Origin: Chrysomallon squamiferum
Taxonomy: Eukaryota; Animalia; Mollusca
DNA length: 64,000 nt
Direction of reading: 5' to 3'
Assembly: GCA_012295275.1 (NCBI GenBank)
Contig: CM022667.1
Location: forward strand, 8,556,001 to 8,620,000
This document shows, piece by piece, positions 30,790-58,347 of the stretch (positions are counted from its first letter, which is position 1; each line of letters opens with the position of its first letter). A program made the translations under genes and the position numbers. The notes below the pieces were generated by a model that did not search any database, was not told the origin of the DNA, and saw only the letters and a program-made list of their open reading frames with translations.

Positions 30790-31711
30790 AGGTGATTTAG
30801 CTACAGTGCCAGATGGAAAGAGGCGCCAAAAATGCACGGTGAGTTTTACTGTAATTTTGCAGCGAAGGACAACTTCGTCTAAAAATATACAATTCCAGTA
30901 AGCGTGACAATGGCTGGCTACAGTTGACAGCATGTTTGGATATCATGACCTAAAACGACCTTAGTCAAAGTCAAACATGTTTTAAGTGCATGTATATTAA
31001 TAAATATCTGTATACACACATTTCAAGTACATAAGTACACAATCATGGTTGTCTTGGTAGTCAAGTGGTATCATTGTCTGCCTTCACAGTTTGGTAAATT
31101 GCAATATGTTCAGACTTGTTTGTGACGTCATGACCAGTGTCAGTTTGTTCCTGAATATTGTTTAAGCAGTCTATTTAGGACAACAAAAAATTAATGTCTA
31201 AATACACCTACAAATTGTTGTTGTTACCATCATAATCATCATTTTTGTTATTGTTGTTATTATTATCATTCTTCTTCTTCTTCTTCTTCTTCTTCTTATT
31301 ATTATTAGATATGAATAATAATTTGCACTGTAATATATATATTTTTTTTTAAATTAGGAAATGCCTGTAAATAAAAGATTAATTAATAAAATATAACAAA
31401 TTTCAGATTTGTGTGGAAGGAAATATTGGAAGTGGCAAAACCTCACTGTTAAGTTACTTCAAAGGGAATTCACAAATTGAGGTAATTTATTATCTAAAAC
31501 AAGCACTACATGTGATCTGAAGAGGTCTACTTTGAAAATGAAGAAATCCAGCATCATATATGAGAAGAGAGAGAGAGAGAGAGAGAGAGAGGTTGTGTGT
31601 GTCTTGAGTTAATTGTTTCCTATTCTTGTTTTGTCAACTTCAGTTGGCACAAACATTTTTTAGTTTTGTTATTAAAAATTTCTCAACTATTAATAATGTG
31701 TAAAAAAAAAA

Positions 31712-31754
<43 letters not shown>

Positions 31755-34700: not shown

Positions 34701-36360
34701 GAATCAAGAGACGTCACAGGACAGAAGAAGCAGGAATACCACTGGTGAGTTTTCTTTTAGTCTGACTGACAGACTGACAGACTGACTGAAGACAGTTAAC
34801 GTGCTAAATCAAGCAAGCTGCCATGAAGCAGTCCTTGAAAGATGGGGCAACATTTTCTGACATACCTGTGACAAGTGAAGCATGGAACTACTAAATAAAC
34901 TTCAAAGTTACTGACTTTATTATTTTTTTTTTTTAATGATTAATTAGCGTAATTTTTGGTTATTCTTTAATTAAAATTTAAAAAAATAATAATTAAAAAA
35001 AAATACATACAAAAGCTGTCATGTTCATTTGTCATTTTTTTTTTTTTTTTTTTATTTATCACTTTAATAAAACCTGTTTCATTTTTTTTTTTTAATATAT
35101 TGGGTTGGCAACTAAATTCCTGCCATTTTAAAAACACAATAGATTTAAACAAAACGGCGGGAACTTAGTTGCCAACCCAATATTTTTTAAAAATAATTTC
35201 TATATTAAATGTCTCTTCGTGTTGCCACAAAAAATACCTAATATCATTTACATTTTATTCTGAGCTGTTCGTTTTGGGGGTTGGGTTTTTTTTTTACGAG
35301 ATCTATCCATAATAATCTAATTGTATCTCATAAATTTCAGTCTCTTTAATTCACTGATAACAGACATTATGAGTGTGCTTTAACTAGATTTTAGGTAAGT
35401 TTATCATCGTAATCATCTTGATCATCTGCCTTGTTATCAGAATCATCTATGAAGATGTTGCAGAATGATAAGAAACTTAGTTCAAGTTTAATATTTTTCC
35501 AGGAATATCTGCAAACTCTGCACACTCTGCACGAAGACTGGCTGATACACAAGAAATTTCCTTGTCCATCTCCTGTCCTTGTAAGAAACCTTTTGTTGCA
35601 ATTCTTTTTATCCATCTTCTGTGTAGTCTGATTAAAATCTGGGTTTTTCTCTTAAAATCTCAGAGAATCGTTAATAACTGTCTATTCTCAGTTTGGCTGT
35701 GACCATTATAAATGAGTTAGGCAGTTTGTAAAAGCACAAGAGGCAGGAACTGCAAATATTACATCAGTAAAGTTGATGTTGATGCTTAATATTTAAAGGA
35801 AATGCCTAAACAACTATAAAATGACCCAAAGCTCTGTCAGTAGAAACGGAATAGTTCTCTTTCATTGCACCAAATTTTAGATAAGGGAGGTAATTACAAT
35901 CATGAATTTAAACAATTTTTCATTCCAAAATTTAAAATGTGAGGTTAGGTGAAAATTTGCCAGAATCTTAATCATGAATTTTTATCCATTTATAATGTTT
36001 GTTTTTCTTTTAAATGTGATTAAGATAGTATGAAGTGTTTGTGTATTTATAATTTGAAAACAAAATACAAAATACAAAATGTGAATTATATATATATATA
36101 CGTATATGTAACAGGTTTTTTTTATTTTCAAAAGTTTTAATTTTCATGTAATTGTGAATTTTAAAACTTACTAAAAACTGACTTTTTTTTTTAAAGCAAC
36201 CAAAGCCATTTCATTATTTAACTAATACGTTTTTTTATGGGTTATTTATTTATTTATTTATTTATTTTAGGTTGTTGATGGAAACAGCAGTCTTGAAGAT
36301 ATGGTTTGTCACTATGAAGATCTTGAACAAAAAATATTTCAAGCAAAATCATACATTTAA
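30135..36360 (+). CDS. TK2: Thymidine kinase 2-like / deoxynucleoside kinase with probable mitochondrial presequence
   Basis: Exons 30135-30261 (basic presequence [17 protein letters not shown]; start less certain), 30792-30838, 31407-31481 (P-loop [10 protein letters not shown]), 32009-32077 (EPVNLW), 33236-33399 ([15 protein letters not shown]), 33903-33991, 34665-34744 (lid [10 protein letters not shown]), 35503-35580 (EYL..LHEDWL), 36271-36360 stop; phases consistent. Confidence 0.92.
35100..35180. mobile_element. 81-bp mariner-type MITE in TK2 intron 7
   Basis: 30-bp terminal inverted repeats (TTGGGTTGGCAACTAARTTCCYGCCRTTTT, 3 mismatches) flanked by TA on both sides (35098-35099, 35181-35182). 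Confidence 0.85.
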
Positions 36361-39300
36361 TTTGGTCAAAAACAAAACAAAAAATAATTTTAAAAAATCA
36401 CCGGAATGGAAATGTATGTTTACTTTATTAAGAAAAGGTTGTATGTAACATGTGATGTTCTGAGAAAAACATTGAAAAGCACATTTTCTAATTGAAAAAA
36501 TGTTAATATCAAATACTATGATTATTAATTTAACACTTAAAAAGATATGAATTAAAAGCATTTTAAAGAAGTAATGAAAAATGACAGCGAAAGAAAACTA
36601 TTTATTATAAATAATTATCACTACTATATATTTTTTTCAATAAGGTAACATTCTATATTTTACAAGAGAGGTGGTGGTTAAGGAGACTATTCCGTTCAAA
36701 TCTTTTCTTAATGAAGTAACAGTATGTAAAATATTTCCCATGAAACTGAAAAGACCGAAGAGTCAGTAAAAGCAGAGTACTCAGATTTATGAATGAAGTG
36801 AATTTTGACTGTTGTTTTTATGTGTGTTTGAGGTAAAGTGCGATTTAGTCGCTATATTTTTTGTATTTTGCACGATGCTATTGCTCTGCAAAACTGAAAA
36901 AAAATATTATTTAGTTAGTATATGGATTTTTAAAATTTCTTTTTGTACAGAATTTGCCCATGCATGCTTAAATTGAACAAAAATAATGTTTGTTTCATTT
37001 AGGAATATATGCTTGTGGTGTACTTGTTTCTACACATGTGACACTGTATTGCAAGAAAGAAAACAGTGTTTGAATGTTTGGTACAGTCAGAATGTGTATG
37101 AAAAATGTCTTTTTAATTTTCTACTTGGACACAGCATTTACAAAATCTCAAAGTATGGATAGGTATATTTTGAAAGATTTCAAAATATTTTATAAAAGGC
37201 ATTAAGAATATGTAAACTGCCATTTATAATCGTTGTTATTTCAGTTTTTAATATTGAATTTGTTTTCTTTTTTTCTGAGATTTAGTAATTATCTGCAATA
37301 TAAATACTCAGTAATCAAAAACATCTTTGTTTGTTAGTTAATTATTAAATGTTTTATTTTACAGAACAGTTTTTATTGTGAACTTTGAAGTTTATTTTGT
37401 CGTTATGTGAGTTTAGTCAACATCCTTATTACCATCCCATATAAAACTTTATTTACTTTTTATGTACAACCTGCTTTGCTAAAGCTTTTCAAAAAATGTA
37501 TTTTTAAACTAATTCAAAGACTGTCAGTTAGATTGCTGTTTGTAGTATTTATGGGGTTTTTTAAGATTTGTTGCTGTTTATATCTTTTGTTTGTTTTCTA
37601 GTCACCAATGGGTGTAAATGGACGTTGTCTATCAGCATTTGCTGTTATGCCTTCGTTAATTTACTTTTTGTGTGTGTTCAGTTACATTAATTACTTCTAT
37701 TACTTTTTATTATTGTAATTATTATAATCATAAAATCACATTGTTGTTCTAAATATTACACATAATTAAATAATGAAACAGATTTGTATCACTAGTACCA
37801 ATTTAAATTTAAAATAAATTTTGAATTAAAAAAAAAATTAAAAAAAATAATTGTTGATAAATGTGTGTATGTGTATATATGATGATGCACTTAAAAATTA
37901 TTAAAAATCCTTTTTTTTTCTTTCTTTTTTTAACTTTTATTGCAAATGTGAAATGTTTGTTTGTTGTTATACCATATTTACCATTTTCAGTCAACACGGA
38001 ACCACATATAACTGGCATTCTTTTAATAATAAAATATTTGTATTATGAATATTTGTTTCATTTTGTTTCCAGTATCTGAACATGTCCTTCTGTGGGTTAT
38101 TTTATTTATTAAGAATAATTATTATCCAATTCTGAATAAAAAATATAATTAATTTAATAATTTTGAAAAGGGACTAGACACAGCATGATGTTTAATTTGT
38201 TGATGGGAAGGGGATTTGAATCCTCTGTATCTCAGATTTTAATCACCAAGTGAAAAACACATTTATTTTATTACTTTTTGACAGTTCAAATTCACGCTGG
38301 CTAATTTAAGTAATGTGATAACTACTTATAGTTTATTAGTATAGATCAATCTCAGTAAAAAAAAATATTTTTTATTTCTTTGAACTATAACCCATTTTAA
38401 GATATTTGGCCATTTCACCCAAACTGTCGATAGAAAAACTGCTGATGCTTACAGAACCAATATTGCTCTCAATTACAATACAGAGTTTGACAGATTCCTT
38501 TCAACAACATTGTTACGGGAGAAACTTGGGTAACAGGATCCATGATGGCTCATGTAAGAGACCAATGAGCCACTAATCGGGTCCTTTGGGACATGATCTC
38601 AAACAGTAAAACAAGCTAAAAATACAAGTAAATCTTTTTTTAATTTTTTTATTCTGGTCATAAATTTCATCTGAAAAGCAGCTACTGCAATAAACTAAGG
38701 AGTGAATTACTTTTTCAACACACTGACCTCAGTCTAGGCCATTCTGTGCTATTGACTTAGTTGCCATGGTTTCAGAGTAGTTTCAAACGTCCTAAACCAA
38801 TGCTAAATCTTACTCAAGATTGAACTCGTCAAAACTGACACTGAGTTGTAAGATTCCCTTCTGCCTTTCGGTAGTTTGCACAAGAAGTTTATGAAGGACA
38901 TCCAACACCAAATCTGCCTCAACAGAGCTTGTATGTTCCTGGACAGGCTGAATAAATGCACATGACACCACTTTCATTGAGTTAGTCCAGTGTACTAGAG
39001 AAACACATAGCTGATTGATTAAAACTGTATTTGTAAGTCAAAAGAAATTACTAACAAAAAACACAAACCTGTACAGGATCTATGAAATAAGTAACACCAT
39101 CTCAATATTAAACTGTAACCAAAACAAACAAAAAATTACTCAAGTTAGTCAAAAACCTGTTAACTTTTGTATTGGTGACCTGTTGCAAAGTTCTCTAAAC
39201 AGTATATAGTAGTTCCATTGATGGTGCATAGATGTCACCACCATTTTGCAGTCAGGAGTTTATGGGGTGGCTCAAAGATTCAAAGGTTTCCCTGTTTCAT

Positions 39301-39904
39301 AGAATTTGCTACACACGATTAAACATGAAACTAATTACACTAAATAAAAGATAACTTGTTGCTACGTTTTTAATAAAAAAGCAAATCTGTTGTTATTTTT
39401 ATCATTCAGTGTATACCTGTTTCATTATGTGTATTGTTCTTAACATGTATGTTAAAAATAAATCGTATATCTGGGAATCAATCATTCGATTAAGTGTGCT
39501 GGACATAATTTCGATCATTTCATTTTCGATACGAAATAAGAAGTGGTACAAAGACAAATACTTGTTTACACTGGTCCACATATACATGCACATATATGGA
39601 TAAATGAGTGCACCAACCTGTCGTCCTTATACTCAAATACGTACACTAGTAAAGCAGTAAAAATAGTGACTATGAATAATTACGCAATGATCATGATGCA
39701 TTACAATATTATGAATATACACGATCGTAACAGTGGACGAACTGTTTAATGACTGAATCGAATGATACAGGTATAAAGATCCGAAAGTGACTTAATATAA
39801 GTAACTTTTTTCTTCTTCTTTTTTTTACTTTATTATAATTATTCTTAATAATTAATATAATGATTGTAGAGAGCAACTCTTCCCAATTCAAAGCTTACGA
39901 AACA

Positions 39905-39992
39905 AGAAACCGGAAGTAAACTGGTACTTCTCTTTGTGAAAATATATTAAAAAAACCAGTCTAATGAAAAAAATGACGCTTGGGTTTTCCTA
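39905..39992 (+). promoter_or_regulatory. Candidate CYLD-type proximal promoter motifs (ETS CCGGAAGT 39910, TGACG, kB-like GGGTTTTCC 39982); duplicated at 54810-54892
   Basis: Motif matches only, 70-155 nt upstream of the ATG in both copies. Confidence 0.4.
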
Positions 39993-40063
39993 TTTTTGTT
40001 TGAGGAAGCTTAATGTTCTCTTGGTGATAAATATATAATAAAAATTGTAAGTTGTTGTTCATA

Positions 40064-43000
40064 ATGAATGACCATGGTTCACAATTTTTCATTCTTCTTG
40101 TCCAAAAGCTTGGGAAGAAAAAAGATAAGGCTGTATTTTCATCACTACGATCGGGTTCTCGATCAAAAACTGTTCTCGCTGGGTCGCTTCTATTTTTTAT
40201 TGATCAGTTGTCCAAAGGACAGGATTACGCACTTATTCTCGAAACATTCGACTCAGACTGTCTTCAGGTAACGTGTATTCCTGGAGAGGTGGAATTAATA
40301 GAAAGAGAAGTCCAAGAATTATTAATTCCAATACCAAATTGCGCAGAACGTTTAGCTGTTTATCAAGACAAGGAGTGGCTAGCAGAAGTACAGACTCTTA
40401 AAAAAGGAGACAGAGTTTTTGTTAAAATGAAAAATCATGAAAGTGAATTGGAAGGAATTGTTAAATACCGTGGCCCTTTACCAGAGAGTGAAGGAATATC
40501 ATTTGGAATTGAATTGGTATGTGTGTTGTATCCGGTTTTCTTTAACTCACACTAATTAAAAATAAAATATAAATATAAAACAAATTGTGTGTGTGTGTGT
40601 GTGAAGAACAACCAGACCTCACACACATACACATATGTAGACGTATACATATACACAGTAACTTATGTTTAATTAATAAACTCCTTAGCCAAAACAATTG
40701 TAATGTAGTGATTAAGTGAGTTATCTCCCCTTGAAAACTTCATTAATTTGTTACAGATCTTTTGGGTTATTGGAGATTTACAGTTTTTTGTTTTGTTATT
40801 ACATAAACATTTTTTATTTTCAAAACAACACTTTTAATATAATTGCTTTTCAAACATTTTATTTTTTAAAATTAAATTTGTTATTATTATTATTATTCCT
40901 GCTGAGAAGAAAATATATTAGTAGAGATAACTATCTTTGATCTGGCATTTAATCTTTCTGCATTTTGCTTTTTATATCTACATTGAAAGTGAAGTAGGAG
41001 TTGCATTTCCTTCAAATTATATGTTGAACTGGTGTCTTTGATGATAGTACTTTAACCATTTTAATGTAAAATTATGGTGCAACACCTCCCTAGCAGCAGG
41101 TATTTTTTTGTGAAATTATCTCAGTGAAATATAATTTAGTGTATTATGTCAAGATATCTCATCATTGGCAGTCTTCTGTCATGTTGAGATATCTTGCCAA
41201 CAGTATTATTCTGTTATACTGTTACATATAACCATTGTCACCAAAAGGGTTAAACCTTCAGACTATGCTAACTATAGAGTTGTAGAAGATATAGACATTA
41301 TATATACCAACAGTATTATTCTGTTATACTGTTACATATAACCATTGTCACCAAAAAGGGTTAAACCTTCAGACTATGCTAACTATAGAGTTGTAGAAGA
41401 TATAGATATTATATATACCAACAGTATTATTCTGTTATACTGTTACATATAACCATTGTCACCAAAAGGGTTAAACCTTCAGACTATGCTAACTATAGAG
41501 TTGTAGAAGATATAGACATTATATATACCAACAGTATTATTCTGTTATACTGTTACATATAACCATTGTCACCAAAAGGGTTAAACCTTCAGACTATGCT
41601 AACTATAGAGTTGTAGAAGATATAGACATTATATATACCAACAGTATTATTCTGTTATACTGTTAACATATAACCATTGTCACCAAAAGGGTTAAACCTT
41701 CAGACTATGCTAACTATAGAGTTGTAGAAGATATAGACATTATATATACCAACAGTATTATTCTGTTATACTGTTACATATAACCATTGTCACCAAAAGG
41801 GTTAAACCTTCAGACTATGCTAACTATAGAGTTGTAGAAGATATAGACATTATATATACCAACAGTATTATTCTGTTATACTGTTACATATAACCATTGT
41901 CACCAAAAGGGTTAAACCTTCAGACTATGCTAACTATAGAGTTGTAGAACATATAGACATTATATATACCAACAGTATTATTCTGTTATACTGTTACATA
42001 TAACCATTGTCACCAAAAGGGTTAAACCTTCAGACTATGCTAACTATAGAGTTGTAGAACATATAGACATTATATATACCAACAGTATTATTCTGTTATA
42101 CTGTTACATATAACCATTGTCACCAAAAGGGTTAAACCTTCAGACTATGCTAACTATAGAGTTGTAGAAGATATAGACATTATATATACCAACAGTATTA
42201 TTCTGTTATACTGTTACATATAACCATTGTCACCAAAAAGGGTTAAACCTTCAGACTATGCTAACTATAGAGTTGTAGAAGATATAGACATTATATATAC
42301 CAACAGTATTATTCTGTTATACTGTTACATATAACCATTGTCACCAAAAGGGTTAAACCTTCAGACTATGCTAACTATAGAGTTGTAGAAGATATAGACA
42401 TTATATATACCAACAGTATTATTCTGTTATACTGTTACATATAACCATTGTCACCAAAAGGGTTAAACCTTCAGACTATGCTAACTATAGAGTTGTAGAA
42501 GATATAGACATTATATGTACCACCGAATTAACAGTTGTCAACAGAGACAGATAAGTATATTTCTGTGCATAATTTTCAACAGAATTCTCTGATGATAATA
42601 ATAAGATATTGTTTCTTATGACTGTGCAGTGACACATAGGAAAGAAAAGTTATATTAATTATTTAGTTAATTATTTTTTAAATTATTATTATTATTATTT
42701 ATTATTTATTTCTTTCTTTAATTATCTACCCCACCCCCAATCAGATTTGTTTCTAACCATATTTATCTACTTCGCAGGATAAGAAAGGATTAGGAACTTG
42801 CGATGGAATGTTCAGAAAACAGAGATTCTTTACCTGTCCGCCTGACAGTGCTGTGTTTTGTGCCGCTCATCACGTTCGGAAACGAAGCGTTGACAATAAC
42901 CCTCATGTGTGGGTGAAAGAAACTCTGAGCAGTCCTGTGTCTGTTAGTGAAGATGTGCAAGAGAGACTCAAGATAGGAGATAGAGTTGTATGGATGAGTG

Positions 43001-44722
43001 ACCACGGGCCCGAACCAGGAAGTGTGAAATGGATCGGCATTCTGCCTGGAGATCTGAAAGGGGAAACAACTGTTGGGGTTGAATTTGTATGTTTGTTTTT
43101 ATGTTACTTGGTGTGGAATGCTGGTGTGTCGCAATGAAATATTCAAATTTAACATTTACATGAATTTAATACTTACAAACAAATATATATAGATATATAC
43201 ACAGACATATACACACACATACAAATTTACTATCTGTACACGTAATTTACGTAAATAATGAGATTTCAGGTATTATTCGAAATGGTTTGTAACAAAGATA
43301 ATAAAGAAAACAATAATTCTAAAATAAGAGTAGTTCTAAAAATTAGTTTAAAAAACACTATTATATATTTATTTATTTTATTTATAAATTACTTCAGTTA
43401 TTTTAAAGAAAACTCTATTTAATAGTTAGTTTGAAATACTAACATTTTGTTAGCTTTTAAAATTAATACCAAAGGATGAAAATAATTAAATTTGGAATGT
43501 TCCCAAACTAAATATTATTTTGATTTTCTTTTAATGGTTACTTGTGCTGCTGAGACGAAAATGTCTTTTGAACTAATTTCATATTCTATCCAGTTAATGC
43601 ATACTAGCTTATTAAATGCTGCATTATAACTTAACCAAGTTAATGTGCTTGTAAAAGAACACAGCAGAATAACTCATAGAATGGTATTTACTATTTCATA
43701 AAGTTGTAACACATTTGTTAAACATTGGTAATATGTTTTTACATAGCTTTCTGTGGAATGCTAGTGGTGTTAATTAATTTATTTTATTCTATAAAAAATG
43801 TTATTTGTTTATTTTGTTATTCATTTATTCATTTTACCATGTGTTGTTAACTTTCAGGATGAGGCAGTTGGTTCTGGAACGGGAAAATACAAAGAACACA
43901 GATTATTTTTCGCCAAGCAGAATCATGCAGTTCTTATTCCTGTGTTAGGCCTTATAAAAGAAGAAGAATTTTATTCTCCTATTAATGGTGAGTACATTCC
44001 ATCTATATATTATTCATCATTACTTTAATAATAAAACTTCAAGAGAATGGATGTCAATTTTTTTTTTTTTTGCCGTGACAGATAAATAAACATCTATATA
44101 CAAAATTAGACAGCATTTTGTTCCACTCAAAGCTGAAAAAGCTTTGGGCTCTGATGATGTCAGAGGCAGTTTTGCCAAAGCAAAAAGGTGTTTTCAATCA
44201 ACCAATAACATCACTAGCGAGTATGTGTTCTGCATTATCATTACTTTTTGGGGGGTTTTTGTTATTCAGTATATTAGGTAATACTTAACATTTACATTTA
44301 AATGAAACTTATTATTATATTATAACTTAAATTTATATTATTGGATGTTGTCAGTTTAAATGAAAGTGACTGAAAAAAAAATTAAATATAATTCCATTTA
44401 TGTATTTATTTTTAAAAGAAAATAAAAGTGAAATAAAAGGAAGTTTTTTTTAACTTTTTTCATTCTATGTGTGGAAACATTTATTTATATATTTAGGACA
44501 ATTGAAATGTATGTGTATAATGGGAAACTAATAATAATAATAATAATAATAATAATAGTAAAAATAGTGAAAATAAAAGAATAAAAACAAACAAAGGATT
44601 AATTTTAAGCAATAGGAGACCCAGAATTTAAATTCAGTTATTGCCAACACAGTTATGTACTAACTAACGTGTATGTGGAACTCCTTCCTTTAAAATTGTA
44701 TTTATTTAATTTTTAAAACATG

Positions 44723-44757
<35 letters not shown>

Positions 44758-47655
44758 CGCAGGTGATTCAGCTTCAGAGGCAGCTGAAAAAACACACAAA
44801 AAATGCATGGTGAGTTTTACTGTAATTTTGCTATGGGCAATTTTGTTTAAAAATATACTACAGTGGCTGGCTACAATTGACAGCATGTTTGGATATCATG
44901 AGCTTGACAAACTAATAGTGAAAGTAAACGTGTTAAATAAATATTTATTAACAAATATCCACATACATGCATATTCATGTTACAAATACAAACATGGTTG
45001 TCTTGGTAGTCAAGTGGTATCATTGTCTGCCTTCACAGTTTGGTGAACAGATGCAATATGTTCGTGGTGTCTAATATTTGTGAGGTCGTTACTGACTACA
45101 TCCTCCTATGTCTGTGCATTCCTGAATATTGTTAATCAGAGTCTGTTTAAGACAACGGAATATTCATTTCTAAATACAAACAGAAATTGTTGTTGTCATC
45201 ATCATCATTAACATCTTCATTATTGTTACTGTTGTTGTTATTATTATTGTTGTTGCTATTGTTCCTATTATGCCATTCAAGATATGAAAAATAATTTGCA
45301 ATATAATATATATATATAATTTTTTAAATTATGAAATGTCTGTATATAAAAGATTGTTTAATAAAATATAAAAGTTTTCACATTTATGTAGACAGAAATA
45401 CTGGAAGTGGCAAAAGTCACTTAAGTTACTTCAAAGAGTATTCACAAATTAAGGTAATTTATTATCTAAAACAAGTACTAACTGTGATCTGGAGAGGTCT
45501 ACTTTGAAAATGAAGAAATCCAGTTGCAAAGCATCATAGAAAGAGAGAAAGAAAGAAAGAGAGAGTGAGAAAGTTACATTAACCAGGTATGTATTTAGTT
45601 AATCAGTTGTCATTCTTTTTTATTATTATTATTTATTATGAATTTTTTTTCACTATTATTTTGTTTATTATTATTATTTTTTATTATCTCCATCTGAAAC
45701 ATTTGTTTCTAACCATATTTATCTACTTTGCAGGATAAGAAAGGATTAGGAACTTGCAATGGAATGTTCAGAAAACAGAGATTCTTTACCTGTCCTCCTG
45801 ACAGTGCTGTGTTTCATGCTGCTCATTGCGTTCGGAAACGAAGCCTTGACAATAACCCTCATGTGTGGTCGAAAGAAACTCCGAGCAGTCCTGTGTCTGT
45901 TAGTGAAGATGTGCAAGACAGACTCAAGATAGGAGACAGAGTTGTGTGGATGAGTGACCACGGGCCCGAACCAGGAAGTGTGAAATGGATCGGCATTCTG
46001 CCTGGAGATCTGAAAGGGGAAACAACTGTTGGGGTTGAATTTGTATGTTTGTTTTTACTTTACTTGTTGTGGAATGCTGGTGTGTCACAATGAAATATTC
46101 AAATTTAACATTTACATGAATTTAATAATTAGAAACATACACACACACACACAAATTTAAACATAGAAATATATACAAAAATGTATAAATGTAATGTAGA
46201 AACAAAAACATCACAGATGTTATATAATGAGATTTCATGTAATATTTGAAATGGTTTGTAGCAAAGATAAGAGAGAGAACAATAATTACAGATTAGTTCT
46301 GAAAATAAGTTTTAAAACCACTATTTTATTAGTAAATAACTTTGATTTTGTTACTACAGATCTATTTAATGGTTAGTTTTAAATACTACCATTTTGTTAG
46401 CTTTTAAAATTAATTTGAAAATAATTGAATTTGGAATGTTCCCAAACTAAATATTATTTTGATTTTCTTTTAATGGTTACCTGTGCTGCTGAGACGAAAA
46501 TGTGTCTTGAACTAATTTCATATTCTATCCAGTTAATGCATACTAGCTTATTAAATGCTGCATTATAACTTAACCAAGTTAATATGCTTGTAAAAGAACA
46601 CTGCAGAATAACTCATAGAATGGTATTTACTATTTCATAAAGTTGTAACACATTTGTTAAACATTGGTAATATGTTTTTACATAGCTTTCTGTGGAATGC
46701 TAGTGGTGTTAATTAATTTATTTTATTCTATAAAAAATGTTATTTGTTTATTTTGTTATTCATTTATTCATTTTACCATGTGTTGTTAACTTTCAGGATG
46801 AGGCAGTTGGTTCTGGAACGGGAAAATACAAAGAACACAGATTATTTTTCGCCAAGCAGAATCATGCAGTTCTTATTCCTGTGTTAGGCCTTATAAAAGA
46901 AGAAGAATTTTATTCTCCTATTAATGGTGAGTACATTCCATCTATATATTATTCATCATTACTTTAATAATAAAACTTCAAGAGAATGGATGTCAATTTT
47001 TTGTTTGCCGTGACAGATAAATAAACTTCTATATTCAAAATTAAACAGCATTTTGTTCCACTCAAAGCTGAAAAAGCTTTGGGCTCTGATGATGTCAAAG
47101 GCAGTTTTGCCAAAGCAAAAAGGTGTTTTCAATCAACCAATAACATCACTAGTGAGTATGTGTTCTGCATTATCATTACTTTTTGGGGGGTTTTTGTTAT
47201 TCAATATATTAGGCAATACTTAACATTTACATTTAAATGAAATTTATTATTATATTATAACTTAAATTTATATTATTGGATGTTTTCGGTTTACATGAAA
47301 GTGATTGAAAAAAAATTAAAATATAATTCCATTTATGTATTTATTTTTAAAAGAAAATAAAAGTGAAATAAAAGGAAGTTTTTTTTAACTTTTTTTATTC
47401 TATGTGTGGAAACATTTATTTATATATTTAGGGGTAGGACAATTGAAATGCATGTGTATAATGGGAAACTAATAATAATAATAATAATAATAATAATAGC
47501 AAAAATAATAAAAATAAAAACAAACAAAGGATTAATTTTAAGCAATAGGAGACCCAGAATTTAAATTCAGTTATTGCCAACACAGTTATGTGATAACTAA
47601 CATGCATGTGGAACTCCTTCCTTTAAAATTGTATTTATTTAATTTTTAAAACATG

Positions 47656-47700
<45 letters not shown>

Positions 47701-50603
47701 TATCGCAGGTGATTCAGCTTCAGAGGCAGCTGAAAAAACACACAAAAAATGCATGGTGAGTTTTACTGTAATTTTGTTTACAAATATACTACAGTGGCTG
47801 GCTACAATTGACAGCATGTTTGGATATCATGAGCTTGACAAACTAATAGTGAAAGTAAACGTGTTAAATAAATATTTATTAACAAATATCCACATACATG
47901 CATATTCATGTTACAAATACAAACATGGTTGTCTTGGTAGTCAAGTGGTATCATTGTCTGCCTTCACAGTTTGGTGAACAGATGCAATATGTTCGTGGTG
48001 TCTAATATTTGTGAGGTCGTTACTGACTACATCCTCCTATGTCTGTGCATTCCTGAATATTGTTAATCAGAGTCTGTTTAAGACAACGGAATATTCATTT
48101 CTAAATACAAACAGAAATTGTTGTTGTTGTCATCATCATCATTAACATCTTCATTATTGTTACTGTTGTTGTTATTATTATTGTTGTTGCTATTGTTCCT
48201 ATTATGCCATTCAAGATATGAAAAATAATTTGCAATATAATATATATATATATATTTTTTAAACTATGAAATGTCTGTATATAAAAGATTGTTTAATAAA
48301 ATATAAAAAATTTCACATTTATGTAGACAGAAATATTGGAAGTGGCAAAAGTCACTTAAGTTACTTCAAAGAGTATTCACAAATTAAGGTAATTTATTAT
48401 CTAAAACAAGCACTAACTGTGATCTGGAGAGGTCTACTTTGAAAATGAAGAAATCCAGTTGCAAAGCATCATAGAAAGAGAGAAAGAAAGAAAGAGAGAG
48501 TGAGAAAGTTACATTAACCAGGTATGTATTTAGTTAATCAGTTGTCATTCTTTTTTATTATTATTATTATTTATTATGAATTTTTTTTCACTATTATTTT
48601 GTTTATTATTATTATTTTTTATTATCTCCATCTGAAACATTTGTTTCTAACCATATTTATCTACTTTGCAGGATAAGAAAGGATTAGGAACTTGCAATGG
48701 AATGTTCAGAAAACAGAGATTCTTTACCTGTCCTCCTGACAGTGCTGTGTTTCATGCTGCTCGTTGCGTTCGGAAACGAAGCCTTGACAATAACCCTCAT
48801 GTGTGGTCGAAAGAAACTCCGAGCAGTCCTGTGTCTGTTAGTGAAGATGTGCAAGAGAGACTCAAGATAGGAGTTAGAGTTGTATGGATGAGTGACCACG
48901 GGCCCGAACCAGGAAGTGTGAAACGGATCAGCATTCTGCCTGGAGATCTGAAAGGGGAAGCAACTGTTGAGTTTGAATTTGTATGTTTGTTTTTACCTTA
49001 CTTGTTGTGGAATGCTGGTCTCTCAAAATAAATATTCATATTTAACATTTACATGAATTTAATGCTTAGAAACAAACAAACACACACACACATACAAGCA
49101 CTCATTTACTGTCTGTACACACAGAAATATATACAAAAATTTATAAATGTAATGTAGAAACAAAAACATCACAGATGTTATATAATGAGATTTCATGTAA
49201 TATTTGAAATGGTTTGTAGCAAAGATAAGAGAGAGAACAATAATTACAGATTAGTTCTCAAAATGAGTTTAAAAAACACTATTTTATTAGTAAATAACTT
49301 TGATTTTGTTACTAACGATCTATTTAATGGTTTGTTAGTATTTAAAATTAATATCAAAGGATGAAAATAATTAAACTTGAAATTTGCAGGATAAGAAAGG
49401 ATTAGGAACTTGCGATGGAATGTTCAGAAAACAGATATTCTTAACCTGTCCTCCTGACAGTTCTGTGTTTTGTACCACTGATAGAGTTTCGAAACAAAGC
49501 ATTGTCAGCAACCCTCATGTGTGGTTGGAAGAAACTCTGAGCAATCCTGTGTCTGTTAGTGAAGATGTGCAAGACAGACTCAAGTTAGGAGTTAGAGTTG
49601 TGTGGATGAGTGACCACGGGCCTGAACCAGGAAGTGTGAAATGGATCGGCATTCTGCCTGGAGATCTGAAAGGGGAAACAATTGTTGGGGTTGAATTTGT
49701 ATGTTTGTTTTTACATTACTTGGTGTGGAATGCTGTGTGTCATATTAAATATTCAAATTTAACATTTACATGAATTTAATAATTAGAAACACACACACAC
49801 ATACACAAACTCACATACACACACACACACACACACATATTTACACATAGAAATATATACAAAAATGTATAAATGTAATGGAGAAACAAAAACATCACAG
49901 ACGTTATATAATGAGATTTCATGTAATATTTGAAATGGTTTGTAGCAATAATTACAGATTAGTTCTGAAAATGAGTTTTAAAACCACTATTTTATTAGTA
50001 AATAACTTTGATTTTGTTACTAAAGATCTATTAAATGGTTTGTTTTAAATACTACCATTTTGTTAACTTTTAAAATTAGTATCAAAGGATGAAAATAATT
50101 AAATTTGGAATGTTCCCAAACTATAAATATTGTTTTGATTTTCTTTTAATTGATACTTGTGCTGCTGATACGAAAATGTCTCTTGAACTAATTTCATATT
50201 CTAACCAGTTAATGCATACTAGCTTATTAAATTCTGTGTTATAAACCTTACCAAAGGTATGTACTTATTAAAGAACACTGTAAAATAACTCATAGAATGG
50301 TGACTGTATTTACTATTTCATAAAGTTGTAACATATAAACCCTCTCCCATTATATTTGTTAAACACTTTTAATATGTTTTTACATAGCTTTCTGTGTGGT
50401 GGTATTAATTAATTAATTTGTTTTTATCTATAAAAAAAAAAATTATTTATTTATTTTATTTACTTTGGTTTATTCAATTTCAGGATGAGCCAATTGGTTC
50501 TGGAACGGGAAAATACAAAGGACACAGATTATTTTTCGCCAAGCAGAATCATGCAGCTTTTATTCCTGTGTTAGGCCTTATAAAAGAAGAAGAATTTTAT
50601 TGA
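40064..50603 (+). CDS. Truncated chimeric CYLD paralog: tandem CAP-Gly modules joined by a TK2-derived exon, no USP domain (about 720 aa if all exons are used; may be a pseudogene)
   Basis: Exons 40064-40516, 42778-43086, 43858-43987, 44763-44809 (TK2-derived), 45734-46042, 46797-46926, 47709-47755 (TK2-derived), 48672-48980, 49390-49698, 50484-50603 (TGA). All AG/GT intact, phases compatible, 2163 nt with no internal stop. Confidence 0.6.
41197..42522. repeat. 110-bp tandem repeat, 12 units, intron 1 of the CYLD paralog
   Basis: Period 110 (41197, 41307, 41418, 41528...), near-identical units. Confidence 0.97.
44042..45560 (+). pseudogene. Degenerate copy of TK2 exons 1-3 with introns (copy a)
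   Basis: Collinear with 30085-31570; first ATG lost, exon 3 acceptor CAG->CAC and P-loop disrupted, exon 2 splice sites intact. Confidence 0.9.
46981..48500 (+). pseudogene. Degenerate copy of TK2 exons 1-3 (copy b)
   Basis: Near-identical to copy a, offset about 2.94 kb. Confidence 0.9.
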
Positions 50604-50667
50604 CCTGTTAATGGTTAGTATATTTCATCTATATATTATTCATCATTACTTTAATAATAAAACTTCA

Positions 50668-51404: not shown

Positions 51405-52072
51405 CGCAGGTGATTCAGCTTCAGAGGCAGCTGAAAAAACACACAAAAAATGCATGGTGAGTTTTACTGTAATTTTGCAGCAAAGGACAATTTTGTTTAA
51501 AAGTATACTACAGCGGCTGTCTGCAGTTGACAGCATGTTTGGATATCATGAGCTTGACAAACTAATAGTGAAAGTAAACGTGTTAAATAAATAATTTATC
51601 CAAAAACATCAGACATTTTATATCATTGTTAATTCGGTTTTTAATGTTGAATATTCTTTTTTCTTTTCTTTTTTTATGAGAGTAAAAATTATTAAATGTA
51701 ATATAATGTCCAACTATCAAAAACAACTTTGTTGATGTTAGTTAATTATTAAATGTTATTTTATAAAACATGATTTATAGTTTATTATGGGAAATATTGA
51801 ATTTAGACAACATCCTTACAGCCATCCAAGATAAAACTTTATTTACTTTATATGTACAACCTGCTTCAATAAAGCTTTTCGAAACATTTATTTTAAAAAT
51901 AATTTAAAGACTTTGTTATTTGTGTTTTTTAAATATTTATTTTTTATAACCTTTTGTTTGTTTTCATGTCACTATGACAGTAACGCTTTGTTTAATTATT
52001 CTAAATATTGTCAAAGGCAGTTTTGCCAAAGCAAAAAGGTGTTTTCAATCAACCAAATGGAATAACATCACT
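50668..52072 (+). pseudogene. Degenerate TK2 copy c: exons 1-2, then jump to TK2 downstream sequence, plus an extra exon 1 fragment
   Basis: Exon 2 homolog at 51410-51456; 51620-51970 matches 37225-37605; 52009-52072 matches TK2 exon 1. Confidence 0.85.
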
Positions 52073-52590
52073 TAACCATATCCTAATAGGGCCTCGATCA
52101 ACCTGTGGACATTTTTTCTCAGCGTTATTTATGTGTCCTGTTTTCAGTGTTTGTTTAAGTTAGAAAATTGGCCCCATCTTATTTACTAAGCCACAGATCA
52201 CAGTTTAGGTTATACCTACATTTAGAATCTACTGGTAATTTTTTTTTACTAATTATAATATTTTATATTGTTCTACTGTTACGGTATTAAAGTACAGTTT
52301 TTGAAAATGTCTTTAACATAGTTACTATTTACCTAAATAGCTTACTTTAATACAGTCTAACATCTTGTAATTAACCTGTATTTATCATTAAAGTAAGTAA
52401 ATATGTTACCCATTCATTTCGACAAATATTCCTAACTGTATTCACTGTTAAGCTCTTGTTAATTAAGTTCAGTTACATTAATTAGTTTTAACATTTCTAT
52501 TAATTTTTATTGATTATTGTAATTGTATTTAAAATAAATTTTGAATTAAAAAGAAAAAAATAATTACATTGATAAATATGTATGTGTTTT

Positions 52591-52626
<36 letters not shown>

Positions 52627-54964
52627 AGATGTGAAAGCGGGATTCAAATACTTTTTGGAAAGATATTTCAACATGACAGCAAATTTGCAGGTTTACCAAT
52701 GTAAATGACAAAGAACATCTATTACATAATGTATTACAAATTCTGCAGGATTATAATGAAACATTTCCCAATTATTAAGAACATTTTTTTTTTTTTTTTG
52801 GCAAATATGAAATGTTTGTTTGTTCTTACAGAATGTTTAACATTTTTGGTCACCATGGGACCACATGTAACTGGTACTCTTCTTTATAATAAAATATTTG
52901 TGTTATGAAGATTTGTTGTGTTTTGTTTGCAGTATCTGAACATGTCCTGTGGGTTATTTTATTTATTTTTTATCAAGCTGTTCTTTTATTCATTTAGTCT
53001 TATTAAGAATAATTCTTATCCCATTCTGAATAAAAAATATAAGATATTTAATAATTTTGAAAAGGGACTAGACACAGCATGATGTTTAATTTGTTGATGG
53101 GAAGGGGATTTGAATCCTCTGTATCTCAGATTTTAATCACCAAGTGAAAAACACATTTATTTTACTTTTTGAGTTCAAATTCACGCTGGCTAATTTTAGT
53201 ACTGTGATAACTGCTTATAGTTTATTAATATAAATCAATCTCAGTAAAAAAAAAAAAAAATTCTTTGAACTATAAGCCATTTTAAGATATTTGGCCATTT
53301 CACCCAAACCTTCGTAACTGTTGATAGAAAAACTACTGATGCTTACAGAACCAATATTGCTCTCAATTACAATACAGAGTTTGACAGATTCCTTTCAACA
53401 ACATTGTTATGGGAGACACTTGGGTAACATGATCCATGATGGCTCACCTAAGAGACCAATGAGCCACCTATTGGGGTGCTGTGGGACATGATCTCAAACA
53501 GTGAAACTAGCTTAAAATATTTTTATTTTTAAATTTATGTCGTAACTTTCATCTGAGAAGCACCTACTGCAATAAACTAAGGAGTGAATTACTTTTTCAA
53601 CACACTGACCTCAGTCTAGGGCATACTGTGCTATTGGCTCAGGTGCCATGGTTCCAGAGTAGTTTCAAAAATCCTAAACCAATGTTAAATCTTACTCAAG
53701 ATTGAACTCATCAAAACTGACATTGAGTTGTAAGATTCCCTTCTGCCTTTTGGTAGTTTGCACAAGAAGTTTATGAAGGACATCCAACACCAAATCTGCC
53801 TCAACAGAGCTTGTATGTTCCTGGACAGGCTGAATAAATGCACATGACACCACTTTCATTGAGTTAGCTCAGTGTACCAGAGAAACACAGCTGATTCACT
53901 AAAATTGTATTTAGAAGTCAAAAGAAATTACTAACAAAAAACACACACCTTTTCAGGATCTATGAAATAAGCAACACCATCTCAATATTAAACTGTAATC
54001 AAAACAAACAATAAATTACTCGTTAGTCAAAAAACTTAACTTTTGTATTGGTGACCTGTTGCAAAGCTCTCTAAACAGTATATAGTAGTTCCATTGATGG
54101 TGCATAGATGTCACTACCATTTTGCAGTCAGGAGTTTATGGGGTGTCTCAAAGTTTCAAAGTTTTCCCTATTTCATAGAATTTGTTGTACATGATTAAAC
54201 ATGAAACTAATTATAATAAATAAAAGATAACTTGTTGCTACGTTTTTAATAAAAAGAGCAAATCTGTTGTTATTTTTATCATTCAGTGTATACCTGTTTC
54301 ATTATGTGTATTGTTCTTAACATGTATGTTAAAAATAAGTCGTATATCTGGGAGTCAACCATTCGATTAAGTGTGCTGGACATAATTTCGATCATTTCAT
54401 TTTCGATACGAAATAAGAAGTGGTACAAAGACAAATACTTATTTACACTGGTCCACATATACATGCACATATATGGATAAATGTGTGCATCAACCTGTCG
54501 TCCTTATACTCAAATACGTGCACTAGTAAAGCAGTAAAAATGTGACTATGAATAATTACGCAATGATCATGATCATGATGCATTACTATATATAATTATA
54601 ATATAATGAATATACACGATCGTAATACTAATAGTAATAGTGGACGAACTGTTTAATGACTGAATCGAATGATACAGGTATAACGTTCCGAAAGTGACTT
54701 AATATAAGTAACCTTTTTCTTCTTTTTTTTACTTTATTATTATTATTCTTAATAATTAATATAATGATTGTAGAGAGCAACTCTTCCTAATTCAAAGCTT
54801 ACGAAACAAGAAACCGGAAGTAAACTGGTACTTCTCTTTGTGAAAATATATAAAAAACAGTCTAATGAAGAAAATGACGCTTGGGTTTTCCTATTTTTGT
54901 TTGAGGAAGCTTAATGTTCTCTTGGTGATAAATATATAATAAAAATTGTAAGTTGTTGTTCATA

Positions 54965-57900
54965 ATGAATGACCATGGCTCACAATTTTTCATTCTTCTT
55001 GTCCAAAAGCTTGGGAAGAAAAAAGATAAGGCTGTATTTTCATCACTACGATCGGGTTCTCGATCAAAAACTGTTCTCGCTGGGTCGCTTCTATTTTTTG
55101 TTGATCAGCTGTCCAAAGGACAGGATTACGCACTTATTCTCGAAACATTCGACTCAGACTGTCTTCAGGTAACGTGTATTCCTGGAGAGGTGGAATTAAT
55201 AGAAAGAGAAGTCCAAGAATTATTAATTCCAATACCAAATTGCGCAGAACGTTTAGCTGTTTATCAAGACAAGGAGTGGCTAGCAGAAGTACAGACTCTT
55301 AAAAAAGGGGACAGAGTTTTTGTTAAAATGAAAAATCATGAAAGTGAATTGGAAGGAATTGTTAAATACCGTGGCCCTTTACCAGAGAGTGAAGGAATAT
55401 CATTTGGAATTGAATTGGTATGTGTGTTATATCCCGTTTTCTTTAACTCACACTAATTAAAAATAAAATAAAAATATAAAACAAATTGTGTGTGTGTGTG
55501 TGTGTGTGCGTGTGTGTGTGAAGAACAACCAGACCTCACACACATACACATATGTAGACGTATACATATACACAGTAACTCATGTTTAATTAATAAACTC
55601 CTTAGCCAAAACAATTGTAATGTAGTGATTAAGTGAGTTATCTCCCCTTGAAAACTTCATTAATTTGTTACAGACCTTTTGGGTTATTGGAGATTTACAG
55701 TTTTTTGTTTTGTTATTTCATAAACATTTTTTATTTTCAAAACAACACTTTTAATATAATTGCTTTTCAAACTTTTTATTTTTTTAAATTAAATTTGTTA
55801 TTATTATTATTATTATTATTCCTGCTGAGAAGAAAATATATTAGCAGAGATAACTGTCTTTGATCTGGCATTTAATCTTTCTGCATTTTGCTTTTTATAT
55901 CTACACTGAAAGTGAAGTAGGAGTTGCATTTCCTTCAAATTATACGTTGAACTAGGTTTCTTTGATGATAGTACTTTAACTTCTGTCATGTTGAGATATT
56001 TTAATGTAAAATTATGGTGCAACACCTCCTCAAAAAGGGTTAAAGCAGCAGGTATTTTTAGTGAAATTATCTCAGTGAAATATAATTTAGTGTATTATGT
56101 CAAGATATCTCATCATTGGCAGTCTTCTGTCATGTTGAGATATCTTGCCAACAGTATTATTCTGTTATACTGTTACATATAACCATTGTCACCAAAAGGG
56201 TTAAACCTTCAGACTATGCTAACTATAGAGTTGTAGAAGATATAGACATTATATATACCAACAGTATTATTCTGTTATACTGTTACATATAACCATTGTC
56301 ACCAAAAGGGTTAAACCTTCAGACTATGCTAACTATAGAGTTGTAGAAGATATAGACATTATATATACCAACAGTATTATTCTGTTATACTGTTACATAT
56401 AACCATTGTCACCAAAAGGGTTAAACCTTCAGACTATGCTAACTTCAGAGTTGTAGAAGATATAGACATTATATATACCAACAGTATTATTCTGTTATAC
56501 TGTTACATATAACCATTGTCACCAAAAGGGTTAAACCTTCAGACTATGCTAACTTCAGAGTTGTAGAAGATATAGACATTATATATACCACCGAATTAAC
56601 AGTTGTCAACAGAGACAGATAAGTATATTTCTGTGCATAATTTTCAACAGAATTCTCTGATGATAATAATAAGATATTGTTTCTTATGACTGTGCAGTGA
56701 CACATAGGAAAGAAAAGTTATATTAATTATTTAGTTAATTATTTTTTAAATTATTATTATTATTATTTATTATTTATTTCTTTCTTTAATTATCTACCCC
56801 ACCCCCAATCAGATTTGTTTCTAACCATATTTATCTACTTCGCAGGATAAGAAAGGATTAGGAACTTGCGATGGAATGTTCAGAAAACAGAGATTCTTTA
56901 CCTGTCCTCCTGACAGTGCTGTGTTTTGTGCCGCTCATCGCGTTCGGAAACGAAGCGTTGTCAATAACCCACATGTGTGGGTGAAAGAAACTCTGAGCAG
57001 TCCTGTGTCTGTTAGTGAAGATGTGCAAGAGAGACTCAAGATAGGAGACAGAGTTGTGTGGATGAGTGACCACGGGCCTGAAGCAGGAAGTGTGAAATGG
57101 ATTGGCATTCTGCCTGGAGATCTGAAAGGGGAAACAACTGTTGGGGTTGAATTTGTATGTTTGTTTTTACATTACTTGGTGTGGAATGCTGGTGTGTCGC
57201 AATGAAATATTCAAATTTACATGAATTTAATACTTACAAACAAATATATATAGATATATACACAGACATATACACACACATACAAATTTACTATCTGTAC
57301 ACGTAATTTACTGTAGAAATATATAAAGACTATTATAATATAGAAACAAAAACATCACAGATGTTAAATAATGAGATGTCATGTATTATTTGAAATGGTT
57401 TGTAACAAAGATAATAAAGAGAACAATAATTCTAAAATAAGAGTAGTTCTAAAAATTAGTTTAAAAAACACTTATATATTTATTTATTTTAAAGAAAACT
57501 CTATTTAATGGTTAGTTTGAAATACTAACATTTTGTTAGCTTTTAAAATTAATACCAAAGGATGAAAATAATTAAATTTGGAATATTCCCAAACTATAAA
57601 TATTGTTTTTATTTTTATATTTTAATTGATACTTGTGCTGGTGAGAACAAAATGTCTACTGGGCTAATTTCACATTCTAACCAGTTACTGCATACTAGCT
57701 TATCAAATGCTGCAGTGTTAGTTTTTCCAAGGGAATCTGATTTTAAAAGAACATTGTAGAATAGCCCATAGAATGGTGACTATTAATATTTCATGCAGCT
57801 GTGACAGACAACCCCCCACCTTTACATTTGTTAAACATTTGTAAGTATAATATGTTATTTCATAGCCTTCTGTGAAAGTTGATGGTATATTAATTAATTT

Positions 57901-58307
57901 GTTTTATCCTGTAATATTTTTATTTATTTATTTTGTTTTTCATTTATTCATTTTACCTGTGTTGTAAAATTTCAGGATGAGGCAGTTGGTTCAGGAACAG
58001 GAAAATACAAAGAACACAGATTATTTTTCGCCAAGCAGAATCATGCATCTCTTATTCCTTTGTTAGGCCTTATAAAAGAAGAAGAATTTTATTCTCCTGT
58101 TAATTGTAAGCATCATTCATCTATATATTATTTATCATTACTTTATAAATATCTCTACGCTGTGCATTTGACTGTTCAGTTGTTTTCCAAGAAACCTCAA
58201 ATATTAGTTGCAGGTAAATGGTTTATAAGACAAGGAATAAAAACATTAAGTTCAGGTCCTTTTCATGATGCACTATCATGTGACAGTGGATAAATGTGTG
58301 TGTGTGT

Positions 58308-58347
<40 letters not shown>

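What the first reader, a model, noticed from the sequence alone, without database searches (positions are those of the whole stretch)
40064..50603. New chimeric gene: CAP-Gly-only CYLD paralog stitched in frame by a captured TK2 exon
Seen: CYLD exon 3 ends in phase 1 and exon 2 starts in phase 0, so tandem e2-e3 units would frameshift. Between each unit sits a TK2 exon 2 homolog (47 nt, phase 1->0, intact AG/GT; 44763, 47709) that restores frame, while the neighbouring TK2 exon 3 copy has lost its acceptor. The path e1-e2-e3-T-e2-e3-T-e2-e2-e3 is open for 720 codons and stops only in the last e3 (TCT->TGA, 50601). All four e2 copies keep 309 nt and open frames, and the CYLD upstream region is retained. 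Established: CYLD CAP-Gly domains mediate microtubule and partner binding, and the USP domain removes K63/M1 ubiquitin to damp NF-kB. Inference: a catalytically empty, multivalent CYLD decoy or adaptor co-regulated with its parent, born by exon shuffling with a phase-adapter exon.
Basis: partly seen in the sequence, partly recalled or inferred. Interest (0 to 1): 0.87.

Follow-up and report, generated by a model that had tools for sequence, protein, structure and literature searches.

The report
Spliced CYLD–TK2 chimera with repeated CAP-Gly2
In a snail genome, an old duplication of two neighbouring genes left a transcribed, spliced, enzyme-less copy of the immune regulator CYLD, in which a leftover exon of the neighbour keeps three repeats of one binding domain in frame; it likely makes a binding protein, but it may instead be a slowly decaying gene.

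Summary
RNA contigs show e3 spliced to T (2 of 2 RNA runs) and T spliced to e2b/c (1 of 2); DNA from two studies holds copy-specific variants. T was not captured alone: one old tandem duplication (about 16% diverged) joined CYLD exons 1-3 to TK2, and the e2-e3-TK2 block then re-duplicated. A third T (51410) was missed. The 720-codon product has CAP-Gly1, three whole CAP-Gly2, two orphan half-domains and a damaged hybrid. It lacks CAP-Gly3 and USP, so an NF-kB decoy is less likely than a tubulin or ubiquitin binder. Selection evidence is mixed. dN/dS in the added exons is 0.8-1.1, yet 57 variants include no indel (5 expected), and changes in whole CAP-Gly2 are conservative (P about 0.03, uncorrected) while orphan halves drift. 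The 5' end is kept fresh by gene conversion. No protein, 3' end or full-length molecule was shown. It is an Sdic/SRGAP2C-type truncated chimeric duplicate, unusual in expanding inside one reading frame.

The parts
37925..40063 (+). copy of the CYLD upstream/promoter region; 2-11% diverged from 52784-54964, falling towards the ATG
40064..40516 (+). e1a: CYLD exon 1 copy (N-terminus + first half of CAP-Gly1); 4 of 453 nt differ from the parent
41197..42522 (.). 110-bp minisatellite in intron 1, 12 copies (4 in the parent)
42778..43086 (+). e2a: second half of CAP-Gly1, linker, first half of CAP-Gly2; an e2a-matching RNA contig is seen in X7
43858..43987 (+). e3a: second half of CAP-Gly2, ends in phase 1; identical to e3b
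44033..44044 (+). primary duplication junction: CYLD intron 3 joined to TK2 5' UTR/exon 1
44044..44220 (+). TK2 exon 1 copy: no promoter, start codon lost, 6-nt deletion, donor intact; lies inside the e3-T intron (also at 46983 and 50670)
44763..44809 (+). T1: TK2 exon 2 copy, 47 nt, phase 1 to 0; 12 of 47 nt differ from TK2
   Evidence: spliced to e3 and to e2b/c in RNA (T1-T3 cannot be told apart)
45382..45453 (+). TK2 exon 3 copy, acceptor lost, frame open, no Pfam dNK match left
45734..46042 (+). e2b: orphan CAP-Gly1 half + linker + first half of CAP-Gly2
   Evidence: e2b-type RNA contigs in X7 and X8
46797..46926 (+). e3b
47709..47755 (+). T2, identical to T1
48672..48980 (+). e2c: lost its e3 partner by deletion; core CAP-Gly changes W85R, G87S, G100E, V101F
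49390..49698 (+). e2d: acceptor rebuilt at the deletion junction, pyrimidine-poor; an e2d-type RNA contig is seen in X7
50484..50613 (+). e3c with TGA at 50601, three residues after the end of the last CAP-Gly2 match and 10 nt before the donor
51410..51456 (+).
   Evidence: terminal role is inference
51457..52784 (+). TK2 intron 2 copy joined by deletion to a copy of the TK2 3' region; several AATAAA/ATTAAA; candidate 3' UTR
   Evidence: inference
30135..36360 (+). parent TK2 (exon 1 30135-30261, exon 2 30792-30838, exon 3 31407-31481; 3' end approximate)
54965..63013 (+). parent CYLD: e1 54965-55417, e2 56846-57154, e3 57976-58105, then CAP-Gly3 and the start of USP; runs off the window

Best explanation
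This is a transcribed and spliced 3'-truncated CYLD duplicate, inferred to have arisen by a tandem duplication spanning the adjacent TK2 gene and CYLD exons 1-3, and it likely encodes an enzyme-less protein whose working parts would be CAP-Gly1 and three CAP-Gly2 domains that bind microtubules or ubiquitin. Shown: the exon layout, the open 720-codon path, the junctions e2-e3, e3-T and T-e2b/c in RNA, and copy-specific variants in independent DNA. Inferred history: (1) the duplication put TK2 exons 2 onward behind CYLD exon 3, in frame, under the CYLD promoter; (2) the block e2-e3-[TK2 exon 1 to intron 3] re-duplicated in tandem, and because 309+130+47 = 486 nt each unit adds 162 codons without a frameshift; (3) deletions removed the TK2 kinase exons and one e3-T pair; (4) gene conversion from the parent refreshes everything upstream of about 43456. 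Inferred action: avidity binding through repeated CAP-Gly2, competing with or supplementing CYLD at tubulin/HDAC6 or on ubiquitin chains, under weak constraint confined to the whole domains.
For: Junctions: a loose end behind e3 reads T in X7 and X8; the X8 loose end before e2 is reproduced exactly (letters and 0.7 agreement) as a mix of e1 and T; record 26 has the 1 difference expected of e2b/c; the loose lengths (44 and 28) match a k=31 branch. RNA contigs matching e2a, e2b and e2d (0, 10 and 19 differences; 0, 10 and 20 expected) have depths of the same order as parent-type contigs, a poor measure of level. One origin: TK2 copy exon 1 and introns 16-17%, CYLD intron 2 end 15-17%, intron 3 15-20%. 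Three CAP-Gly2 score 149, 149 and 139 against 156 for the parent, and the stop falls after the last. No indel among 57 distinct variants against 5.0 expected from intron rates, P 0.0065. Changes in whole CAP-Gly2 are milder than random (P 0.034 with 4 likely parent-lineage sites dropped, 0.0001 with them), while orphan halves are neutral (P 0.38, 0.64). Human CAP-Gly1/2 bind microtubules and CAP-Gly2 binds ubiquitin (PMC8511506, passages); the N-terminal part acts without the catalytic domain (PMC2775896, passages).
Against: pN/pS against the parent is 0.78 (e2b), 0.80 (e2c), 1.14 (e2d) and 0.82 (e3c), and 0.69-4.1 between copies; a neutral copy against a constrained parent would give about 0.5 (inference). 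With three species, 15 of 32 e2 changes and 6 of 9 e3 changes hit conserved sites, as chance predicts. Over all 36 changes the profile test gives P 0.083, the site-conservation measure within CAP-Gly2 gives P 0.49, and the 28 P values are uncorrected. e2c's 7 private changes are worse than random (P 0.996). One stop against 2.3 expected gives no signal. The unused TK2 exon copies also carry only net in-frame indels, and AT-rich introns may overstate the exon indel rate. Two orphan half-domains and a damaged hybrid could misfold. No protein, full-length molecule or 3' end was seen; both RNA runs come from one study.
Confidence: 0.5

Rival explanations
1. A transcribed pseudogene. The CYLD promoter and splice sites still work and conversion keeps the 5' end intact, so RNA (and perhaps unstable protein) is made, but nothing depends on it and the repeated units drift.
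For: pN/pS 0.8-1.1 in the added exons; invariant core residues hit in e2c and F18L in e2d; a stop in the oldest e3 copy; T differs from TK2 exon 2 at the neutral rate (12 of 47, P 0.076); the T1=T3 identity is expected by chance (P 0.11); 0-5% divergence upstream of 43456 includes intron, so it reflects conversion rather than selection.
Against: No indel in 57 variants; milder changes in whole CAP-Gly2 than in orphan halves; all used splice sites are intact while the unused TK2 acceptor and start codon are lost; RNA persists after 16% divergence.
Confidence: 0.35
2. One reading: a dominant-negative decoy that raises NF-kB signalling by competing with CYLD at receptor complexes.
For: Shared promoter region; human CAP-Gly2 binds ubiquitin (PMC8511506, passages), so three copies could shield chains; truncated duplicates such as SRGAP2C and CHRFAM7A antagonise their parents (PMC6169893, passages).
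Against: CAP-Gly3 and USP lie in parent exons at 61690 onward that were not duplicated. NEMO binds CAP-Gly3 and LUBAC recruitment goes through USP-SPATA2 (PMC8511506 and PMC11165066, passages), so the known routes to the complex are missing.
Confidence: 0.08
3. The copy is an alternative 5' end of CYLD itself. Transcripts skip the stop-bearing e3c and splice into the parent's exon 2, giving a long CYLD with extra CAP-Gly domains and an active USP.
For: The path e1a to e2d, then e2P-e3P, is open for 827 codons; e2 is phase 0-0.
Against: No such junction among the rows shown (24 of 132 loose-end rows shown; only unit 1 laid); it needs a 7-kb skip across e3c, T3 and the parent's promoter, past several AATAAA.
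Confidence: 0.05
4. Assembly artefact (false duplication).
For: Units 1 and 2 are near-identical over part of their length (e3a = e3b; T-e2 intron 0.7%). Some unit-1 letters are absent from the listed DNA contigs (44279 in X1 and X2, 42872 in X2), so the unit number may differ between individuals or be collapsed.
Against: Copies differ from the parent by up to 16-20%; e2b/c-type and unit-3-type variants stand in DNA runs of two studies; the chimeric junctions are in RNA.
Confidence: 0.02

Closest known systems
Sdic (Drosophila melanogaster; sw + AnxB10)
   Same: A duplication spanning two adjacent genes, fused and trimmed by deletions, then expanded in tandem, with conversion from the parent (PMC7475035, passages). 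The product also derives from a microtubule-related gene (dynein intermediate chain; recalled).
   Different: Sdic expanded as whole gene copies; here the expansion is of exons inside one reading frame, made possible by the neighbour's exon. Sdic has shown function and positive selection; this locus has neither.
3'-truncated human duplicates SRGAP2C, ARHGAP11B, NOTCH2NL; fusion gene CHRFAM7A
   Same: They keep the parent's promoter and N-terminal domains, lose the C-terminal part, and often splice into downstream neighbours; some antagonise the parent (PMC6169893, passages).
   Different: There fusions rarely keep an ORF (under 2% for NOTCH2NL-NBPF, per that paper); here the foreign exon is inside the ORF twice. 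The duplication is far more diverged (16%), and no heterodimerising domain is known for CAP-Gly.
CYLD N-terminal fragment released by MALT1 cleavage (human R324)
   Same: Unit 1 has the same content, CAP-Gly1 + CAP-Gly2 without CAP-Gly3 or USP (PMC11165066, passages); an oyster paracaspase cleaves human CYLD at that site (PMC5978004, passages).
   Different: Genetically encoded and multiplied rather than cleaved; whether the snail CYLD is cleaved was not tested.
CLIP-170/CLIP-115-type multi-CAP-Gly microtubule binders
   Same: Tandem CAP-Gly domains without an enzyme; mollusc CAP-Gly2 matches CLIP-170 (Restin) domains at E 0.001-0.004.
   Different: No coiled coil (recalled as a CLIP feature); a GSGTG loop in place of GKNDG; derived from CYLD.

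Membership tests
CYLD deubiquitinase | three CAP-Gly domains including CAP-Gly3 | tested here: not met
   CAP-Gly3 exons occur only in the parent
CYLD deubiquitinase | C-terminal USP domain | tested here: not met
   USP match only from 62762 on, in the parent; the path stops at codon 721
CYLD deubiquitinase | descent from CYLD (N-terminus, CAP-Gly1, CAP-Gly2) | tested here: met
chimeric 3'-truncated tandem duplicate (Sdic/SRGAP2C type) | duplication spans two adjacent genes, with a junction | tested here: met
chimeric 3'-truncated tandem duplicate (Sdic/SRGAP2C type) | spliced transcript joins exons of both parents | tested here: met
   e3-T in 2 of 2 RNA runs, T-e2 in 1 of 2 among the rows shown
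chimeric 3'-truncated tandem duplicate (Sdic/SRGAP2C type) | gene conversion with the parent | tested here: met
   divergence steps from 0-5% to 11-19% at about 43456, introns included; no formal conversion test run
chimeric 3'-truncated tandem duplicate (Sdic/SRGAP2C type) | selection on the product | tested here: inconclusive
chimeric 3'-truncated tandem duplicate (Sdic/SRGAP2C type) | protein made, with a phenotype | not testable with these tools
   needs proteomics or knockdown
dominant-negative NF-kB decoy | keeps the parent's recruitment surface (NEMO or SPATA2 binding) | tested here: not met
   CAP-Gly3 and USP absent (PMC8511506 passages)
dominant-negative NF-kB decoy | co-expressed with the parent | tested here: met
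   parent e3-e4 and chimeric e3-T contigs stand in the same two RNA runs; cell type unknown
transcribed pseudogene | disabled reading frame | tested here: not met
   720 open codons; the only stop follows the last whole domain
transcribed pseudogene | neutral evolution | tested here: inconclusive
   pN/pS near 1 but no indels and mild CAP-Gly2 changes

The most novel reading that the evidence does not exclude
A selected new gene: a multivalent CAP-Gly2 protein built by a neighbour's exon that makes a non-symmetric exon pair repeatable. It would act as a ubiquitin-chain or microtubule clamp, or as bait for bacterial proteins aimed at CYLD CAP-Gly2 (a bacterial factor binds this domain in mammals; PMC13623971, abstract), tuning host-bacterium relations in this snail.
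Probability: 0.15. Interest if true: 0.8.

Novelty: new variant of a known kind. Interest (0 to 1): 0.5.

Why it matters
It is an RNA-supported case of a foreign exon turning a frame-breaking exon pair into a repeatable module, caught part-way between birth and either function or decay, with the parents next door and the steps readable. No enzyme-less CYLD paralog of this kind turned up in the paper searches or among 58 long relatives. If it is translated it is a natural test of what CYLD's CAP-Gly2 does without the catalytic domain. The kind of origin is well known and function is unproven, which caps the interest.

Tried and rejected
No whole genome was held, so other copies elsewhere in the genome are unchecked. 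A metagenome scan gave 2 short, uninformative matches among 195 candidates, so there is no sister-species locus. Among the 58 of 152 relatives of 250 aa or more, none shows the repeated e2-e3 layout; USP-less ones look like cut gene models (not verified) and three with 7-8 CAP-Gly lack the CYLD N-terminus. None of 74 TK2 relatives lists a CAP-Gly family. The human CAP-Gly2 structure matched too weakly (E 0.16, not reaching the ubiquitin-binding Phe) to test that site. Earlier-findings look-ups were empty. One search timed out and was rerun; (bacterial promoter scan) was irrelevant. Contig depth was not used as copy number. Rejected: 'T conserved by selection'; 'TK2 exon 3 acceptor loss needed for frame'; 'exon captured on its own'. 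No structure or complex prediction was run.
Full report
Setting. The window is from a gastropod: the nearest named relatives are Gigantopelta aegis CYLD-like (61-63%) and TK2-like (87%). TK2 (30135 to about 36360) and CYLD (54965 onward) lie in tandem on the + strand with the finding between them. No whole genome was held.

Observation. All exon claims hold. The path e1a-e2a-e3a-T1-e2b-e3b-T2-e2c-e2d-e3c is open for 720 codons and stops at TGA 50601; without T it stops at codon 299. A third identical T lies at 51410-51456.

Origin. Self-comparison shows TK2 30082-31589 (exon 1 to intron 3) copied at 44044 and 46983, and 30082-30981 at 50670, followed by a copy of the TK2 3' region and then the CYLD upstream region. 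This is the layout of one tandem duplication running from the TK2 5' UTR to CYLD intron 3. Substitution divergence agrees on both sides of the junction: TK2 exon 1 15.7%, introns 17%, end of CYLD intron 2 15-17%, start of intron 3 15-20%. At birth CYLD exon 3 (phase 1) could therefore splice in frame to TK2 exon 2 onward (inference). The block e2-e3-TK2(exon 1 to intron 3) then re-duplicated; its junction lies in GA-rich sequence on both sides, and the intron before e2b is 14-15% from the parent, so this step is also old. A deletion removed the e3-T pair after e2c and rebuilt e2d's acceptor; another removed the TK2 kinase exons after T3. Upstream of about 43456 the copy is 0-5% from the parent back to about 38850 and 5-11% beyond, introns included, against 11-19% downstream, which indicates recent conversion. 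T is thus a relic, not a separately captured exon. The TK2 exon 3 copy is 72 nt, phase 0-0 and open, so its lost acceptor does not bear on frame.

Expression. Nine runs hold the stretch, two on record as RNA. I laid 4 of the 9 (RNA X7 and X8, one study; DNA X1 and X2, two studies) on 42560-44380, which draws contigs from all copies. In both RNA runs a contig leaves e3 into T. In X8 two contigs enter e2 from other sequence; their printed consensus and 0.7 agreement are reproduced exactly by mixing the e1 end with the T end, and the shorter one has the single difference expected of e2b/e2c. The loose lengths, 44 and 28, are those of an assembly branch right after T plus G, so T has a second continuation, most simply its unspliced intron (inference). 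The e2-e3 joint is in both RNA runs and neither DNA run; the parent's e3-e4 splice is in both RNA runs. RNA contigs match e2a (X7), e2b (X7, X8) and e2d (X7) by difference counts; X7 record 19 and X8 record 30 match no copy exactly. Limits: contigs, not reads; 24 of 132 loose-end rows were shown, so T-e2 in X7 and absence in DNA are not established; T1-T3 are indistinguishable; no full-length molecule. DNA runs hold e2b/c-type and unit-3-type variants, so the duplication is real, but the unit number may vary.

Product. Pfam places CAP-Gly positions 2-33 in e1, 37-65 at the start of e2 and 34-62 in e3, so introns split the domains. A profile built from G. aegis and Haliotis domains reads CAP-Gly1 (112-186), CAP-Gly2 (215-290), T, half CAP-Gly1, CAP-Gly2 (377-452), T, half CAP-Gly1, a damaged hybrid (539-613), CAP-Gly2 (642-717), stop. 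CAP-Gly3 and USP are not duplicated. The stop is 10 nt before the e3c donor; if T3 opens the last exon the message would escape junction-dependent decay (inference; untested). AATAAA lies 112-130 nt after each T, so shorter products ending after T1 or T2 are possible.

Selection. Against: pN/pS to the parent 0.78-1.14 for e2b, e2c, e2d and e3c (0.55 for e3a, 0.14 for e2a, 0.10 for e1a); conserved sites hit at chance rate with three species; 1 stop against 2.3 expected; T at the neutral rate; e2c's private changes worse than random. For: 0 indels in 57 distinct variants against 5.0 expected (P 0.0065; 8 of the 57 are shared by all copies and may be parent changes). On a 143-sequence profile, changes in whole CAP-Gly2 are milder than random (7 changes, P 0.034 after dropping 4 likely parent-lineage sites; 11 changes, P 0.0001 before) while orphan halves are neutral; the site-conservation measure shows no such effect, all changes together give P 0.083, and nothing is corrected for the 28 tests. 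The pattern fits weak constraint on the parts that can fold, but does not exclude drift.

Mechanism. In human CYLD, CAP-Gly1 and 2 bind microtubules, CAP-Gly2 and 3 bind ubiquitin weakly, and CAP-Gly3 binds NEMO (PMC8511506, passages). The N-terminal part binds HDAC6 and delays cytokinesis without the catalytic domain (PMC2775896, passages). LUBAC recruitment runs through USP and SPATA2 (PMC11165066, passages). A protein of CAP-Gly1 plus three CAP-Gly2 would most plausibly gain avidity for tubulin or ubiquitin chains and lack the known routes to NF-kB complexes. These activities are not shown for mollusc domains, and I could not map the ubiquitin-binding Phe. A bacterial factor binds mammalian CAP-Gly2 (PMC13623971, abstract and outline), which makes a bait role conceivable but speculative.

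Comparison. The origin matches Sdic (PMC7475035, passages) and the 3'-truncated, fusion-prone human duplicates (PMC6169893, passages). It differs in that the expansion is inside one reading frame and depends on the neighbour's exon. Five paper searches (listings seen, open-access library only) found no such CYLD paralog, and none of 58 long relatives has this layout. No supplements were read.

Verdict. Real, expressed, origin solved. About even odds of a weakly constrained binding protein, 0.35 for a transcribed pseudogene. New variant of a known kind; interest 0.5.

Noticed in passing
window 62989-63979: 76-bp tandem array (about 13 copies) whose unit holds the last bases of a CYLD USP exon and its GT donor, so the 5' splice site is repeated many times.
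   Followed up: no
window 48672-48980: Four of e2c's 7 private changes hit sites conserved in 90% or more of homologs. The DNA contigs shown are e2c-type at 42869 while the RNA contigs are e2b-type, hinting that e2c is used less; assembler collapse is not excluded.
   Followed up: partly
window 43858-43980 (X7 record 23): An RNA contig has parent letters at 2 of the 5 sites that separate e3P from e3a in that range and paralog letters at the others: conversion into the working CYLD allele, or assembler merging.
   Followed up: partly
window 44044-44220: The TK2 exon 1 copy keeps its donor and has a possible acceptor near 44081; use of it would put a stop two codons after e3 (read from sequence). 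Low-depth RNA covers it in X7 and X8, and X8 record 31 leaves it at 44205 for 140 unexplained letters.
   Followed up: partly
window 52009-52072: Isolated 64-bp piece of TK2 exon 1 that lacks the 6-nt deletion of the three larger copies.
   Followed up: no
window 51868: AATAAA present in the copy of the TK2 3' region but not at the matching TK2 position near 37470; a candidate poly(A) signal for the chimera.
   Followed up: no
window 41197-42522 and 56148-56590: 110-bp minisatellite in intron 1: 12 copies in the paralog, 4 in the parent, 98-99% alike.
   Followed up: no
window about 24300-28650, minus strand: Exon-like pieces of a short-chain dehydrogenase (DHRS4-like; name recalled, not tested) head to head with TK2.
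   Followed up: no
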